Shown: piece after piece, positions 909 through 5,935 of the stretch
How positions within the stretch are numbered: position 1 is the stretch's first letter
How the letters are laid out: the number at the start of each line of letters is the position of its first letter
NCBI GenBank assembly: GCA_030390025.1
Contig: CM059431.1
Coordinates: forward strand, 99,140,001 to 99,204,000
Length of the DNA: 64,000 nt
DNA from: Squalus acanthias
Taxonomy: Eukaryota
Direction of reading: 5' to 3'
Notes under the pieces: generated by a model
The model's input: the letters and a program-made list of their open reading frames with translations, nothing else
The model's database searches: none
What the model was told of the DNA's origin: nothing
Made by a program: the position numbers and the translations under genes

Positions 909-2490
909 AGCTGGTGGGACTGACCAGTGACCGCTCGCTCGAACAGGAGAGGAGCTGGTGGGACTGACCAGTGACCGCTCGAACAGAAGAGGAGCTGGTG
1001 GGACTGACCAGTGACCGCTCGCTCGAACAGGAGAGGAGCTGGTGGGACTGACCAGTGACCGCTCGCTCGAACAGGAGAGGAGCTGGTGGGACTGACCAGT
1101 GACCGCTCGCTCGAACAGGAGAGGAGCTGGTGGGACTGACCAGTGACCGCTCGCTCGAGCAGGAGAGGAGCTGGTGGGACTGACCAGTGACCGCTTGAAC
1201 AGGAGAGGAGCTGGTGGGACTGACCAGTGACCGCTCGAACAGAAGAGGAGCTGGTGGGACTGACCAGTGACCGCTCGCTCGAACAGGAGAGGAGCTGGTG
1301 GGACTGACCAGTGACCGCTCGAACAGAAGAGGAGCTGGTGGGACTGACCAGTGACCGCTCGCTCGAACAGGAGAGGAGCTGGTGGGACTGACCAGTGACC
1401 GCTTGAACAGGAGAGGAGCTGGTGGGACTGACCAGTGACCGCTCGAACAGAAGAGGAGCTGGTGGGACTGACCAGTGACCGCTCGCTCGAACAGGAGAGG
1501 AGCTGGTGGGACTGACCAGTGACCGCTCGCTCGAACAGGAGAGGAGCTGGTGGGACTGACCAGTGACCGCTCGCTCGAACAGGAGAGGAGCTGGTGGGAC
1601 TGACCAGTGACCACTCGCTCGAGCAGGAGAGGAGCTGGTGGGACTGACCAGTGACCACTCGAACAGAAGAGGAGCTGGTGGGACTGACCAGTGACCGCTC
1701 GCTCGAACAGGAGAGGAGCTGGTGGGACTGACCAGTGACCGCTCGAACAGAAGAGGAGCTGGTGGGACTGACCAGTGACCGCTCGCTCGAACAGGAGAGG
1801 AGCTGGTGGGACTGACCAGTGACCGCTTGAACAGGAGAGGAGCTGGTGGGACTGACCAGTGACCGCTCGAACAGAAGAGGAGCTGGTGGGACTGACCAGT
1901 GACCGCTCGCTCGAACAGGAGAGGAGCTGGTGGGACTGACCAGTGACCGCTTGAACAGGAGAGGAGCTGGTGGGACTGACCAGTGACCGCTCGAACAGGA
2001 GAAGAGCTGGTGGGACTGACCAGTGACCGCTCGAACAGAAGAGGAGCTGGTGGGACTGACCAGTGACCGCTCGCTCGAACAGGAGAGGAGCTGGTGGGAC
2101 TGACCAGTGACCGCTCGCTCGAACAGGAGAGGAGCTGGTGGGACTGACCAGTGACCACTCGAACAGGAGAGGAGCTGGTGGGACTGACCAGTGACCGCTC
2201 GAACAGGAGTGGAGCTGGTGGGACTGACCAGTGACCGCTCGCTCGAACAGGAGAGGAGCTAGTGGGACTGACCAGTGACTGCTCGAACAGGAGAGGAGCT
2301 AGTGGGACTGACCAGTGACCGCTCGAACAGGAGAGGAGCTGGTGGGACTGACCAGTGACCACTTGAACAGGAGAGGAGCTGGTGGGACTGACCAGTGACC
2401 GCTCGCTCGAACAGGAGAGGAGCTGGTGGGACTGACCAGTGACCGCTTGAACAGGAGAGGAGCTGGTGGGACTGTCCAGTGACCGCTCGC
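909..2490. repeat. Minisatellite of mixed 44/40-bp units (roughly 37 copies)
   Basis: Unit gagctggtgggactgaccagtgaccgctc(gctc)gaacaggagag. Confidence 0.97.
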
Positions 2491-2751
2491 TGAAAATTAA
2501 CTTTCAGGAACAAACGCCTTCCCAGTTTTGGCCTTCTGTTGCTGCGGAGTTCCCAGAATTGGTAAAAGACGCAATGAAAGTGTTGCTACCTTTCCCAACA
2601 ACATACATTCATGAAACATAATTTTCTGCTCTGGCAGCAATGTGGACAAAGCACAGGTCCCGTCTGGAAGTGGAGAATGGTTTACGACTGCCATTGTCAA
2701 ACATGAGAAGTCGCACAACACCAGGTTATAGTCCAACAGATTTATTTAATT

Positions 2752-2790
2752 TTACAAGCTTTCGAAGCAGTTCGCTCCTTCGTCAGGTAA
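2752..2790 (-). ncRNA. Mirror copy of the minimal hammerhead ribozyme
   Basis: Reverse complement of 3435-3473 in the left arm. Confidence 0.75.
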
Positions 2791-3434
2791 GTTAGCAATG
2801 AGAGAATCTCCCAGAATTCACAATTTAAACCCAGACAAAATCTATTCACATTATTCCCTACAACAAAGAGCACAGCCAAGACAATGAGATGTGTCCCAGG
2901 GGGTCCAACGTGTCAAACCACCTAGCACAAAGGAAGATGGTTGTAGTTGTAGGAGGTCAATCATCTCAGCCCCAGGCCATCGCTGCAGGAGTTCCTCAGG
3001 GCAGTGCCCTAGGCCCAACCATCTTCAGCTGCTTCTTCAATAACCTTCCCTCCATCATAAGTCAGAAATGGGGATGTTTGCTGATGATTGCACAGTGTTC
3101 AGTTGCGGAGTTGTGAATGGCACTGAACTCTGTGCAATCATCAGCAAACATCCCCATTTCTGACTTATGATGGAGGGAAGGTTATTGAAGAAGCAGCTGA
3201 AGATGGTTGGGCCTAGGGCACTGCCCTGAGGAACTCCTGCAGCGATGGCCTGGGGCTGAGATGATTGACCTCCTACAACTACAACCATCTTCCTTTGTGC
3301 TAGGTGGTTTGACACGTTGGACCCCCTGGGACACATCTCATTGTCTTGGCTGTGCTCTTTGTTGTAGGGAATAATGTGAATAGATTTTGTCTGGGTTTAA
3401 ATTGTGAATTCTGGGAGATTCTCTCATTGCTAAC

Positions 3435-3473
3435 TTACCTGACGAAGGAGCGAACTGCTTCGAAAGCTTGTAA
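3435..3473 (+). ncRNA. Minimal type-I hammerhead ribozyme motif
   Basis: TTAC-CTGACGA-A-GGAGC(gaact)GCTTC-GAAA-GC-TT-GTAA: core boxes, stem II, stem I TTAC/GTAA, palindromic AAGCTT stem III. Confidence 0.75.
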
Positions 3474-4339
3474 AATTAAATAAATCTGTTGGACTATAAC
3501 CTGGTGTTGTGCGACTTCTCATTTTTGTCCGCCCCAGTCCAACGCCGGCATCTCCACATCATTGTCAAACATCGCAGACAGATAGACAGAATCTGCAGTG
3601 AGAAGCAGGCACGCCATCTCACGGATATCTGTCAGTAAATACCCGTTTTCTTAAAAGCATTATTAAAGCACTCTTTACATGCAACACTTTCATATTCTGA
3701 GTGTTATATAGTATTATAATTTAGATGGGGGGTCCGTGATTACAAATCCATTTGGAAAGGGGGTCCTTCAACCAAAAATGTCTGAGAACCACTGGTCTAA
3801 TCGAATCCTGGAACAATAATACAAAGCACTAAGATGGCACATACCAATTATTTAAAAAATAAACATGTCTGCATAAATATCTGCCCTTTAATCTTAATAT
3901 TGTCTTTGTGTATCTCTTCTTTTTAATATTTTATACTTCCATAACCTGTCTCTAACTATTGTCTCAGCAAGCTCCACACATCACGCTTTCGTACAGGTGC
4001 AAAGCCATCTTAAAATGCTGGGGGTTTCTGAGCCGTAACCTGAAACAAGCTGATCCCAAACTGCAAAGGTCCTCAACCATTATTTTAACAAAATTGCCCA
4101 ACTGTGAGCAGCGCCATGGGGCAAAGCTAACGGTGTATGTAAAAACCGGCGCAGCTGAGAGGTCGACTGTGAGGGTAAAAGATGGATCTTACCAGTGGCC
4201 CGTTTCCAGGTCACCTCCCTCCCCACCCCCAGTCACCTGGAGGAAGGTTAAAGGAACGCAAAGTGAAGTTGTTGGGAATTCCACTAATGGGAATGAGGAC
4301 AAAAAAAATAGCATCAGATCGAAATATGGAACACAACAG

Positions 4340-4955
4340 AAACAGAGGTAGTGAGTACAAAAGTAGAGAAGTTATGCTGAACCTTTAGAAAGCACTGGTT
4401 AGGCCACAGTTGGAGTATTGCATCCAGTTCTGGTCACCACACTTTAGGAAGGATGTGAAGGCCCTTGAGAGGGTGCAGAGGAGATTTACCAGAATGGTTC
4501 CGGAGATGGGGGATCTTAGCTACAAGGACAGGTTGGAGAAGCTGGATTTGTTTTCATTAGAGCAAAGGAGGTTGTGGGGTGATTTGATAGAGGTGTACAA
4601 GATTATGACGGATTTGGATAGGCTAGACGGGGAAAGGCTGTTCCCACTAGTTGATGGTACAAGGACTAAGGGACACAGATTTAAGGTTTTGGGCAAGAGA
4701 TACAAAGGGGATGTGAGGAAAAACTTTTTTACGCAGCGAGTGGTGAGGACCTGGAATTCGCTGCCGACGGAAGTGGTGGAAGCGGAGACACTCAATGTTT
4801 TCAAGGGGAGACTGGATAGGCACTTGAGGGAAATAAACTTGCAGGGCTCCGGGGATAGAGCGGGGGAATGGGACTGACTGGATTGCTCCACAGAGAGTCG
4901 GCACGGACTCGATGGGCCGAATGGCCTCCTTCTGTGCCGTTATGACTCTATGACC
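4340..4955 (+). mobile_element. CR1 LINE 3' fragment
   Basis: LEYCIQFWSPHFRKDVKALERVQRRFTRM...RKNFFTQRVVRTWNSLP; tatgactc tail. Confidence 0.88.
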
Positions 4956-5116
4956 CTAATGCCCACAAGCTGATAACCATTAACGCACTAGTTATACAGC
5001 AGGACCACTTACAGCAGCAGGGGTTTGAAATACATGAGTGGTTTGGGTTGGAATGTTGGTGTACTGAATTTCACAGCCATGAATTTCACACACATTGCTG
5101 CTCAACAATTTTTGTG

Positions 5117-5935
5117 AACAGGAGGAGGCCATTCAGCCCCTCGAGCCTGTCCTGCCATTCTATTACATCATGGCTGATCTGTACCTCAACTCCATTTTCC
5201 CGCTTTTGCTCCATACCCCTTAATACCCTCACCCGGTGAATCAATCCCTACCGTGAAATCTCCAATTGATCTCCAGGATCCACAGCCTTTTGGGGGAGAG
5301 AGTTCCAGATTTCTACTAACCTTTGTGAAAAAGTGCTTCCTGATTTCACTTCTGAACGGCCTGGCTCTAATTTTAAGGTTTTGCCCCCCTTGTTCTGGAC
5401 TCCCTCCACCAGAAGAATTTGTTTCTCTCTGGGTCATAGAGGCATGCAAGCCTCCCTGCACACTAAGGTACAGGTCCCCAGGGATGGCCGCTGGAAGCCC
5501 TGTTTGTTTTTAAATGTATTAATTCACGGGATGTGGGCGTCGCTGGCAAGGCCGGCATTTATTGCCCATCCCTAACTGCCCTTGAGAAAGTGGTGGTGAG
5601 CCGCCTTCTTGAACCGCTGCAGTCTGTGTGGTGAAGGTGCTCCCACAGTGCTGTTAGGGAGAGAGTTCCAGGATTTTGACCCAGCAACGATGAAGGAACG
5701 GCCGATATATTTCCAAGTCAGAATGGTGTGTGACTTGGAGGGAAACATCTTCTCTGTGTCTACCCTATCAAACCCCTTCATAGTCTTAAAGACCTCTATC
5801 AGGTCACCCCTTAATCTTCTCTTTTCTAGAGAAAAGAGCCCCAGCCTGTTCAACCTTTCCTGATAGTTATAACCTCTCAGTTCTGGTATCGTCCTTGTAA
5901 ATCTTTTTTGTACCTTCTCCAGTGCCTCGATATCC
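5117..5935 (-). mobile_element. Cluster of antisense CR1-group LINE 3' fragments
   Basis: Translations RKHFFT.., LEKVQKRFTRTIP.., WNSLPNSTVG on the minus strand. Confidence 0.75.

What the first reader, a model, noticed from the sequence alone, without database searches (positions are those of the whole stretch)
2692..3572. 820-bp fold-back Penelope-type insertion with twin hammerhead ribozymes and a captured LINE RT fragment
Seen: two 401-bp arms (2703-3103, 3122-3522) are reverse complements, with only one mismatch noticed near the 18-nt loop. An unpaired 37-nt tail follows, and a 13-bp direct repeat flanks the whole insertion inside a hAT transposase remnant. Each arm has an outward-facing minimal hammerhead (stem I TTAC/GTAA, palindromic AAGCTT stem III). 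The inner ~190 bp encode a LINE RT piece (AGVPQGSALGPTIFSCF..MFADDC), and the loop continues that LINE sequence on the minus strand. Known: Penelope-like elements carry minimal hammerheads, form inverted pLTR structures and have short tails. Inference: a non-autonomous, ribozyme-ended RNA carrying foreign cargo was retrotransposed by PLE machinery with a fold-back template switch. Such a retrozyme-like vehicle would yield a long hairpin RNA when transcribed from either strand.
Basis: partly seen in the sequence, partly recalled or inferred. Interest (0 to 1): 0.8.

Follow-up and report, generated by a model that had tools for sequence, protein, structure and literature searches.

The report
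Penelope fold-back insertion with LINE piece
This is one ordinary hairpin-shaped insertion of a young Penelope-like retrotransposon in a shark-like genome; it is unusual only because it picked up a 200-base piece of another retroelement at its centre, and that piece shows the two arms were not made independently.

Summary
The arms are 2698-3103 and 3122-3527, with an 18-nt loop, one arm mismatch near the loop, a 32-37-nt unpaired tail and a 13-bp target-site duplication. Seven of 7 paralogous hAT copies carry the 13-mer once.

The outer 258 bp of each arm is the terminal (pLTR) region of a very young autonomous Penelope-like element (PLE) with an RT plus GIY-YIG ORF.

The fold-back is the family's normal insertion form. 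The family's exact 35-nt hammerhead occurs 2,042 times. Of the first 100 places, 48 form 24 outward-facing pairs. All 24 have one tailed and one tail-less arm, and 22 have 12-14-bp duplications.

The hammerhead fits the published PLE minimal type, but no Rfam model detects it.

Only the centre is unusual. It holds 202 nt of a LINE RT, joined to the PLE at a 4-nt microhomology. It is 184/184 identical to one LINE copy 16.5 Mb away. The junction was found nowhere else, and 0 of 33 other fold-backs carry foreign DNA.

The "retrozyme-like, ribozyme-ended vehicle" reading is not supported. Capture of unrelated sequence and self-priming by PLEs were already described (PMC3846280). Verdict: a new member of a known kind, of low to moderate interest.

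The parts
2692..2704 (.). Left copy of the 13-bp target-site duplication CATTGTCAAACAT. Its last 6-7 nt also resemble the PLE sequence at the tail-less boundary (6/7 microhomology).
2705..2923 (-). Tail-less arm: PLE terminal (pLTR) region, in PLE sense on the minus strand. It starts at the family's tail-less boundary (PLE reference ~2694).
   Evidence: 99.6% to reference copy L028, ref 2469-2694
2752..2790 (-). Minimal hammerhead motif of the left arm; predicted cleavage between 2756 and 2755 on the minus strand.
   Evidence: motif features per PMC4209133; no Rfam hit
2920..3103 (+). LINE RT fragment in the left arm (sense on plus), 184/184 identical to the LINE copy at C7:115645442-115645625. 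Positions 2920-2923 (ACCT) are shared with the PLE (microhomology).
3104..3121 (-). 18-nt loop. It continues the LINE sequence of the right arm on the minus strand (16/18 to the donor copy).
3122..3305 (-). LINE RT fragment in the right arm (sense on minus), 183/184 to the donor copy. The one difference is at 3129.
3302..3559 (+). Tailed arm: last 258 bp of the PLE unit (pLTR region), 99.6% identical to six other copies compared. 39 other places in the genome match it over its full length.
3435..3473 (+). Minimal hammerhead motif of the right arm: UUAC / CUGACGA / A / GGAGC-GAACU-GCUUC / GAAA / GCUU | GUAA. Predicted cleavage is at 3469|3470, 90 nt before the element's 3' end.
3523..3559 (+). 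The 'tail': 32-37 nt present only on this arm. The last 3 nt before the TSD and the first 3 nt of the TSD (CAT) are ambiguous between element and target.
3560..3572 (.). Right copy of the 13-bp target-site duplication.
2490..2691 (+). Flanking decayed repeat (probable hAT transposase C-terminus) that was the insertion target. It continues at 3573-3700.

Best explanation
Window 2692-3572 is the product of a single retrotransposition event by a young, autonomous Penelope-like element (PLE) of this shark-like genome. SHOWN: the element's endonuclease made a staggered cut in a dead hAT-like repeat, leaving a 13-bp duplication. One end of the insert starts at the family's distal start point (with the 32-37-nt tail) and the other at its proximal, tail-less start point. 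Only the last 258 nt of the PLE unit (the pLTR region with the minimal hammerhead) were copied. INFERRED (about 55%): reverse transcription of sense PLE RNA primed from the right-hand target end ran 258 nt. It then switched at a 4-nt microhomology (ACCT/AGGT) onto a nucleic acid carrying the antisense strand of a LINE copy. The donor is most likely the copy at C7:115.645 Mb, as RNA or DNA. Synthesis copied 202 nt of it. The nascent cDNA then folded back on itself, leaving an 18-nt loop, and was copied back to the tail-less boundary, which made the second arm. The hammerhead played no visible part, because the template was uncleaved at it. The insertion has no evident host function. If transcribed from either strand it would give a ~400-bp perfect hairpin RNA, as would the many other fold-backs of this family.
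For: PLE identity. 39 other places match window 3302-3559 over its full length. In six copies the sequence upstream continues into a 679-aa ORF. That ORF has an RVT_1 hit at E=1.6e-8. It is 40% identical over its full length (E=4e-154) to a protein whose aligned C-terminus is a Pfam GIY-YIG domain. Locus L092 shows the inverted copy, partial tandem and full unit of ~3,025 bp.

Family norm. The exact 35-mer hammerhead occurs 2,042 times against 0 for the control. Among its first 100 places there are 24 minus/plus pairs within 4 kb and 0 plus/minus pairs. In 24 of 24 pairs one arm ends at reference 2725-2738 and the other at 2686-2699. 22 of 24 have exact 12-14-bp flanking repeats. The window's insert has the same ends and a 13-bp TSD, verified on 7 of 7 paralogs.

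Capture. LINE homology covers 3104-3305 continuously and overlaps PLE homology (from 3302) by 4 nt. The left arm is 184/184 identical to one LINE copy, while the other 38 scored copies are 94-95%. That donor locus holds no PLE sequence within 9 kb.

One arm copied from the other. Both arms carry the same unique junction and the same donor sequence, and the loop is contiguous with the tailed arm.

Literature. The inverted 5'-truncated copy and one-sided 30-40-bp tail are in PMC8557442 (passages). Two RT start sites defining the tail, and a hammerhead not needed for insertion, are in PMC11167929 (main text). Self-priming inferred from palindromic junctions, and unrelated sequences captured between pLTRs with TSDs, are in PMC3846280 (passages).
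Against: A simple copy-back from the tail-primed cDNA cannot be the family's only route. In 7 of the 24 surveyed pairs the tail-less arm is the longer one. This fits priming on both target strands (PMC11167929) better. In 4 of the near-symmetric pairs the extra central bases belong to the tail-less arm. Copy-back also does not explain by itself why synthesis stops at the tail-less boundary. The arm mismatch (3096/3129) has the donor's base in the supposedly secondary arm, and the loop differs from the donor at 2 of 18 positions. So either three later or error-prone changes cluster at the apex, or the true donor is not that copy. Whether the donor was RNA or DNA is unknown. A chimeric source locus absent from this assembly cannot be excluded, since only 40 of 5,469 candidates were scored. 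The palindrome was not checked in long reads: the public runs gave only ~60-nt repeat-dominated contigs.
Confidence: 0.7

Rival explanations
1. 5' transduction plus double copying. A 5'-truncated PLE copy once sat in the LINE copy at C7:115.6 Mb, or a near-identical copy, in a haplotype or region absent from this assembly. A read-through transcript (antisense LINE followed by PLE pLTR) was the template. Both nicked target strands then primed reverse transcription of that same chimeric RNA, one at each start site, and both cDNAs ran to about its 5' end and were joined.
For: PLE protein cleaves and extends both target strands and starts at two adjacent sites (PMC11167929, main text). 24 of 24 pairs have exactly one tailed and one tail-less arm, and 10 of 24 are near-symmetric, as expected if two cDNAs run off one RNA. 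An arm mismatch in which one arm keeps the donor base is natural for two independent copies.
Against: No locus with the junction was found: only the window's own two arms span it among the 40 scored of 5,469 candidates. The 100%-identical LINE copy has no PLE within 9 kb. The 4-nt microhomology fits a switch as well as an old insertion junction.
Confidence: 0.17
2. DNA-level templated repair. The LINE piece was copied from chromosomal DNA of the donor locus by microhomology-mediated template switching of a host polymerase while the integration intermediate was being repaired. The fold-back arose in the same repair.
For: The junction has 4-nt microhomology. The best donor lies on the same contig, which makes up about 4.3% of the genome: 159.8 of 3,713 Mb. 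Differences from the donor cluster at the apex.
Against: 16.5 Mb is far for templated repair. 0 of 33 other fold-backs show such insertions. A reverse transcriptase is already at the site and such enzymes are known to jump templates. This is really a variant of the best explanation that differs only in the enzyme and template.
Confidence: 0.08
3. One reading: a non-autonomous, ribozyme-ended, retrozyme-like RNA carrying foreign cargo that PLE machinery mobilises as a family.
For: A minimal hammerhead is present in each arm. Non-LTR retrozymes are proposed to derive from PLE pLTRs (bioRxiv 10.64898/2026.07.22.740005, abstract only).
Against: The junction is unique. The PLE part equals the end of the autonomous element. 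The insert's ends are not at hammerhead cleavage sites, since the site lies 90 nt inside. There is no tandem array of units here.
Confidence: 0.02
4. Assembly or chimeric-read artefact: the inversion does not exist in the genome.
For: Palindromes are a known long-read artefact and PLE structures trouble assemblers (PMC8557442, passage). Reads could not be checked.
Against: An artefact would not end one arm exactly at the family's tail-less boundary, flush with a 13-bp duplication of a target that is single in 7 of 7 paralogs. Nor would it reproduce the architecture seen in 24 of 24 independent loci.
Confidence: 0.03

Closest known systems
Canonical endonuclease-containing Penelope-like elements (Penelope/Poseidon-type), with insertion architecture as described by Evgen'ev & Arkhipova and in PMC8557442, PMC3846280 and PMC11167929
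   Same: A single ORF with RT plus C-terminal GIY-YIG. Partial tandems forming pLTRs. An inverted 5'-truncated copy at one side. A 30-40-bp tail on one arm only. A TSD. A minimal hammerhead in the pLTR. The ORF start lies next to the reverse-transcription start region.
   Different: Nothing in kind. This is a shark family that is very young (copies 97-100% alike), with about 2,000 exact hammerhead copies and 12-14-bp TSDs. The clade within PLEs was not determined.
Unrelated sequences captured between Penelope pLTRs with TSDs in the rotifer Adineta vaga (PMC3846280)
   Same: Non-PLE sequence is enclosed by PLE terminal repeats and flanked by a TSD. It is attributed there to self-priming and template jumps or to trans-mobilisation.
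   Different: Here the cargo is a 202-nt antisense-joined LINE RT fragment that is itself part of the palindrome. It has a defined 4-nt microhomology junction and an identifiable donor copy. The rotifer cases lie between direct or solo pLTRs and include whole intron-bearing genes.
Minimal hammerhead ribozymes of metazoan PLEs (Cervera & de la Pena 2014, PMC4209133)
   Same: CUGANGA and GAAA boxes. [quoted passage not shown] A G10.1-C11.1 pair. Palindromic 15.2-16.2 (AGCU). A 4-bp helix I. Motifs often found 100-700 bp apart on opposite strands.
   Different: None found at motif level. Activity is untested, and the Rfam hammerhead models do not score it.
LINE-1 chimeric retrocopies (e.g. U6-L1) and twin-priming inversions
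   Same: RT template switching during target-primed reverse transcription creates chimeras at microhomologies. Use of both target strands creates inversions.
   Different: This involves a different RT/EN lineage. L1 twin priming gives inverted, non-duplicated segments, not a near-perfect palindrome with a programmed tail-less end. This comparison rests on my own knowledge; no paper was read for it.
Non-LTR retrozymes (bioRxiv 10.64898/2026.07.22.740005, abstract only)
   Same: Hammerhead-bearing sequence related to PLE pLTRs.
   Different: Retrozymes are recurring, tandemly organised non-autonomous units. This is a single, unique, inverted insert.

Membership tests
Penelope-like element (EN+) | [quoted passage not shown] | tested here: met
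   The element whose end forms the arms has a 679-aa open frame (L028). It hits RVT_1 at E=1.6e-8. It is 40% identical over its full length to P0098, whose residues 578-666 are Pfam GIY-YIG (28.9 bits, cut-off 22.6) and align to the ORF's C-terminus. In the table of the best 120 hits, PF01541 is listed for 19 proteins by my hand count. The ORF itself gave no direct GIY-YIG hit in Pfam or PDB.
Penelope-like element (EN+) | Partial tandem copies forming pseudo-LTRs | tested here: met
   L092: partial copy (reference 2003-2731) followed directly by a full unit; repeat spacing ~3,025 bp.
Penelope-like element (EN+) | Inverted 5'-truncated copy adjoining the insertion, with a 30-40-bp tail at one end only | tested here: met
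   Window: arms end at reference 2694 and 2729. Family: 24 of 24 surveyed pairs have one tailed and one tail-less arm.
Penelope-like element (EN+) | Target-site duplication flanking the whole complex insert | tested here: met
   13 bp in the window, present once in 7 of 7 paralogous targets. 12-14 bp in 22 of 24 other fold-backs.
Penelope-like element (EN+) | Clade assignment (Penelope/Poseidon, Neptune, Nematis) | not tested
   No tree was built and no named reference PLE sequences were at hand.
PLE minimal hammerhead ribozyme | Catalytic boxes CUGANGA and GAAA, an unpaired nucleotide between 9 and 10.1, a G10.1-C11.1 pair, palindromic 15.2-16.2, and a short helix I | tested here: met
   Read directly from window 3435-3473 against the features listed in PMC4209133 (parts 1-2 of 4 read). 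The pattern occurs 67,379 times in the genome against 30 for the reversed control. Position N7 varies (A/C/G/T) between families. Helix I covaries, TCAC/GTGA versus TTAC/GTAA, among 23 distinct variants, of which 21 keep at least 3 bp.
PLE minimal hammerhead ribozyme | Detection by a curated covariance model (Rfam hammerhead families) | tested here: not met
   No hammerhead hit at gathering scores in the whole window, at E<=10 in 2000-4500, or at E<=10 in 3425-3495. This is expected for a motif without helix III, but it remains a miss.
PLE minimal hammerhead ribozyme | Self-cleavage | not testable with these tools
   Needs an in vitro assay. Published PLE minimal hammerheads cleave poorly and as dimers or with protein (PMC4209133, PMC11167929).
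Non-LTR retrozyme / non-autonomous hammerhead element | A recurring non-autonomous unit (the same structure at many loci, typically tandem) bounded by hammerhead cleavage sites | tested here: not met
   The junction was found only in the window's two arms among the 40 scored of 5,469 candidates. There is no tandem unit. The cleavage site lies 90 nt inside the end.
LINE (non-LTR retrotransposon) RT fragment | Homology to the RT domain of a dispersed non-LTR family | tested here: met
   RVT_1 at E=6.6e-5 for the 47-aa piece and 2.4e-28 for the intact relative L014. 39 genomic copies were scored at 94-99%. The LINE clade was not determined.
hAT transposon (target) | hAT C-terminal dimerisation domain | tested here: inconclusive
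   The paralog ORF scores 21.2 bits against a cut-off of 21.4, E=2.5e-4. The window's own piece gave no hit.

The most novel reading that the evidence does not exclude
The captured LINE segment is a natural barcode. It shows that near-symmetric Penelope fold-backs are made from one cDNA that snaps back and copies itself (a hairpin cDNA intermediate), with the tail-less boundary acting as a programmed stop or resolution site. Together with 24 of 24 insertions having exactly one tailed and one tail-less arm, this would mean that in vivo the two reverse-transcription start sites found in vitro are used in a strictly coordinated, one-each manner per integration. This very young ~2,000-copy shark family would then be a ready-made data set for solving the unresolved PLE integration mechanism.
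Probability: 0.35. Interest if true: 0.5.

Novelty: new member of a known kind. Interest (0 to 1): 0.3.

Why it matters
How Penelope-like elements integrate, and why they leave inverted and tandem copies with a one-sided tail, is still described as undefined (PMC8557442). The first in vitro system dates from 2024 (PMC11167929). This locus adds no new kind of element. It does give a clean, datable example in which a foreign 202-nt marker, with an identifiable donor and a 4-nt microhomology junction, sits in both arms. So the arms cannot be two independent copies of PLE RNA. The family around it has 2,042 exact hammerhead copies, about half of them in TSD-flanked fold-backs, each with one tailed and one tail-less arm. 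That makes it a useful natural sample for testing self-priming against two-strand priming. For genome annotation, it warns that tens of thousands of such hairpins exist in this genome (67,379 motif hits). They are real insertions rather than assembly errors, and they are potential sources of long double-stranded RNA.

Tried and rejected
Rfam. No hammerhead family matched in the whole window at gathering scores, in 2000-4500 at E<=10, or in 3425-3495 at E<=10. The strong MIR869, mir-19 and similar hits are artefacts of the perfect hairpin, all lie below gathering scores, and were discarded.

Direct detection of GIY-YIG in the PLE ORF failed in Pfam and in PDB sequences (only a chance hit at E=1.8). 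The domain was shown through homologues instead. The ESM Atlas neighbours (score 0.98, clusters with HTH_animal, DUF8422, GIY-YIG and RVT_1) were used only as a lead.

Pfam on the window's own hAT piece gave nothing.

Public reads. The look-up of sequencing runs listed 24 runs with no RNA holder on record. Read laying on four of them returned only ~60-nt repeat-dominated contigs, none bridging the unique junctions or the loop. So they neither confirm nor refute the palindrome and say nothing on expression.

An early impression from a biased sample of 9 pairs was that the tailed arm is always the longer one, which would have favoured pure copy-back. The unbiased 24-pair sample overturned it: 7 with the tailed arm longer, 7 with the tail-less arm longer, 10 near-equal.

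A later LINE insertion into a pre-existing fold-back is rejected, because the LINE piece is itself palindromic (184 bp in each arm). A later DNA-level inverted duplication is rejected, because the TSD and the tail-less end match the family's insertion signature.

Literature searches for PLE chimeras found no description of a LINE fragment captured in a PLE fold-back. The terms were 'Penelope, retrotransposon, template switching, chimeric' and 'Penelope-like, template jump'. They did find the rotifer captures (PMC3846280). One search failed on term syntax and was not repeated.
Full report
OBSERVATION

The structure exists as described. The repeat finder reports inverted arms 2698-3103 and 3122-3527 (406 nt) separated by 18 nt. 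It also reports a 13-nt direct repeat, CATTGTCAAACAT, at 2692-2704 and 3560-3572.

A base-by-base comparison finds two mismatches in 406. One (2702/3523) lies where the arm overlaps the duplicated target. The other (3096/3129) lies 8 nt from the loop.

As RNA the stretch folds into one hairpin of -825.8 kcal/mol. Twenty shuffles average -252.8 +/- 8.5.

The 13-mer is a genuine target-site duplication. The flank belongs to a repeat family with 123 candidates. In 7 of 7 paralogs examined, the window's left and right flanks overlap on a single copy of the 13-mer.

The flank is probably a hAT transposase C-terminus. A paralog's 149-aa ORF hits Dimer_Tnp_hAT at E=2.5e-4, 21.2 bits against a cut-off of 21.4. 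The window's own 43-aa piece gave nothing.

WHAT THE ARMS ARE

The window lies in a 3.7-Gb genome. Searching it with 3104-3559 gave 5,748 candidates, of which 40 were scored. Thirty-nine other places match only the last 258 nt (3302-3559) over their full length. Six of these were compared and are 99.6% identical.

In all six the sequence upstream of the breakpoint is shared and continues into one long open frame. The 679-aa frame of locus L028 has an RVT_1 hit at E=1.6e-8. It has 3,422 relatives at E<=1e-10; the closest named ones are shark proteins at 80-92% identity. It aligns over its full length (40% identity, E=4e-154) with a lancelet protein whose residues 578-666 are a Pfam GIY-YIG domain. 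My own Pfam and PDB scans of the ORF did not score GIY-YIG directly.

Locus L092 shows the classical arrangement: an inverted 5'-truncated copy, a partial tandem copy (pseudo-LTR), then a full unit of about 3,025 bp. The ORF's ATG sits at the very point where insertions end.

So the outer arms are the terminal, pLTR region of a young autonomous Penelope-like element (PLE).

THE FOLD-BACK IS THE FAMILY'S NORMAL INSERTION FORM

The exact 35-nt hammerhead of this family occurs 2,042 times (1,059 + 983), against 0 for the reversed control.

Among the first 100 places listed, I counted 24 minus/plus pairs within 4 kb (48 of the 100 motifs). There were no plus/minus pairs and one same-strand pair, the tandem above.

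I fetched all 24 pairs and compared them with the reference copy:
- In 24 of 24, one arm ends at reference position 2725-2738 (tailed) and the other at 2686-2699 (tail-less).
- Ten are near-symmetric, with inner ends within 26 nt of each other.
- In 7 the tailed arm is longer, and in 7 the tail-less arm is longer.
- None has foreign DNA at the centre. Three apparent gaps are the element's own 5' region.
- Twenty-two have exact 12-14-bp flanking repeats, one has 8 bp and one has none.

Nine further pairs from the first search look the same. That sample was biased toward long tailed arms.

The window's insert ends at reference 2694 and 2729 and has a 13-bp duplication, so it has exactly this signature.

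The literature describes the same anatomy:
- an inverted 5'-truncated copy and a 30-40-bp tail often present at only one end (PMC8557442, passages);
- a 31-bp tail and an inverted pLTR 37 bp shorter (PMC3846280, passages);
- in vitro, cleavage and extension of both target strands, with reverse transcription starting at two adjacent internal sites whose spacing equals the tail (PMC11167929, main text read).

THE HAMMERHEAD

No Rfam model detects it. The miRNA hits are hairpin artefacts.

Read directly, 3435-3473 is UUAC / CUGACGA / A / GGAGC-GAACU-GCUUC / GAAA / GCUU | GUAA. It therefore has every feature that Cervera and de la Pena list for PLE minimal hammerheads (PMC4209133, parts 1-2 of 4 read):
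- the catalytic boxes;
- a G10.1-C11.1 pair;
- palindromic 15.2-16.2;
- a 4-bp helix I.

A relaxed pattern occurs 67,379 times in the genome, against 30 for the control. Position 7 varies freely between families. Among 23 distinct variants, helix I covaries (TCAC/GTGA in 13, TTAC/GTAA in 5), and 21 keep at least 3 pairs.

The same paper notes dual motifs 100-700 bp apart on opposite strands.

Activity is untested. First, the two motifs are on opposite strands, so a transcript holds only one in sense. Second, the predicted cleavage site (3469|3470) is 90 nt inside the element's end and both arms span it. The copied template was therefore uncleaved there. This matches the in vitro result that unprocessed RNA is the substrate (PMC11167929).

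THE UNUSUAL PART

Searching the genome with 3122-3400 gave 5,469 candidates, of which 40 were scored. Only the window's own two arms cover the junction. The other 39 hits cover the first 184-185 nt only. These are copies of a LINE at 94-95% identity, except one at 99%: C7:115645442-115645625, 16.5 Mb away on the same contig.

The fragment is an RT piece. It hits RVT_1 at E=6.6e-5, and an intact relative hits at 2.4e-28.

Against that closest copy, the left arm is 184/184 identical. The right arm plus loop, read on the minus strand, is one contiguous 202-nt match with 199/202 identity. The three differences are the arm mismatch and two loop positions.

LINE homology (3104-3305) and PLE homology (from 3302) overlap by 4 nt, AGGT/ACCT. 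The donor locus holds no PLE sequence within 9 kb.

The LINE sense strand is joined to the PLE antisense strand.

MECHANISM

Because both arms carry the same unique junction and the same donor sequence, they cannot be two independent reverse transcripts of ordinary PLE RNA. Either one arm was copied from the other, or both came from one chimeric template.

My preferred reading (about 55%) has four steps:
1. Target-primed reverse transcription begins at the tailed start site.
2. After 258 nt it switches template at the 4-nt microhomology, onto RNA or DNA presenting the antisense strand of the LINE copy.
3. It copies 202 nt of that template.
4. The cDNA snaps back, leaving the 18-nt loop, and is copied back to the tail-less boundary.

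Self-priming was already inferred for PLEs from palindromic inverted junctions (PMC3846280).

Evidence against copy-back as a general rule is real. In 7 of 24 pairs the tail-less arm is the longer one, which copy-back from a tail-primed cDNA cannot produce. In four near-symmetric pairs the extra central bases belong to the tail-less arm. Two-strand priming (PMC11167929) explains those cases.

The main rival for this locus (about 17%) is a read-through chimeric RNA from a source copy missing from the assembly, copied from both target strands. A DNA-templated repair variant (about 8%) is suggested only by the donor lying on the same contig, which is about 4% of the genome.

An assembly artefact is unlikely (about 3%) given the TSD and the family-specific tail-less end. 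It was not excluded with reads, because the public runs gave only short repeat-dominated contigs.

COMPARISON AND NOVELTY

Every defining PLE feature that could be tested was met. Membership of a retrozyme-like family was tested and not met.

Capture of unrelated, non-coding sequence between Penelope pLTRs with TSDs, template jumps and self-priming were reported for rotifer elements in 2013 (PMC3846280, passages). My two literature searches found no case of a LINE fragment inside a PLE fold-back, but that is a detail rather than a new kind.

Here the event is rare: it is the only one among 34 fold-backs examined (the window plus 33 others).

The verdict is a well-observed but ordinary PLE insertion with a rare chimeric centre. 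Its value is as a natural marker for the still-unsolved integration mechanism, and as a pointer to a very young, abundant shark PLE family suited to studying it.

Noticed in passing
window ~990-2570: A long minisatellite of 40/44-bp units (12 copies seen in 2000-2489, 91-100% alike) lies directly upstream of the hAT-like remnant. On the minus strand it reads as open frames of up to 504 codons with a repeated SLVSPTSSSPVRA-like motif. It is probably just a tandem repeat.
   Followed up: partly
genome-wide: The relaxed minimal-hammerhead pattern occurs 67,379 times, against 30 for the reversed control. In the first 100 places I counted 29 close minus/plus pairs against about 2 plus/minus pairs, by eye. 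So outward-facing fold-backs are the rule for several PLE families of this genome, not only this one.
   Followed up: partly
L041, L049, L059 (reverse complement) and the flank of L006; L052 and L053: Different PLE fold-backs share the same target-site duplication (TTGAATATACTCA in three or four loci, CCTCTATTTATAAA in two). Either the element repeatedly hits one site inside another repeat family, or insert-bearing segments were later duplicated.
   Followed up: no
L029 = C7:115641000-115650000 (LINE copy at about 2953-5505, fragment at 4443-4626): The only LINE copy that is 99-100% identical to the captured piece lies on the same contig as the window, 16.5 Mb away. That contig is about 4% of the genome. 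This may hint at spatial proximity of donor and target, or be chance.
   Followed up: partly
L092 = C1:175686300-175691300: In a tandem copy the PLE ORF's start codon lies at the exact point where insertions end (..CCACATCATGA). The hammerhead is about 90 nt upstream of the ATG and the reverse-transcription start region flanks the start codon. In the anole element the start sites lie 111-118 nt inside the ORF.
   Followed up: partly
L027 = C5:39628900-39632700: One inverted pair has tails on both arms (reference 1987-2731 and 1896-2734, head to head) plus a further inverted piece. It is the only exception to the one-tail rule among 34 pairs seen; it came from the biased first sample.
   Followed up: no
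window 3096/3129 and loop 3104-3121: All three differences from the donor LINE copy cluster within 26 nt at the apex of the palindrome, while the remaining ~360 LINE-derived bases are identical. This could be error-prone synthesis at the turn, mutation of a cruciform loop, or a slightly different true donor.
   Followed up: no
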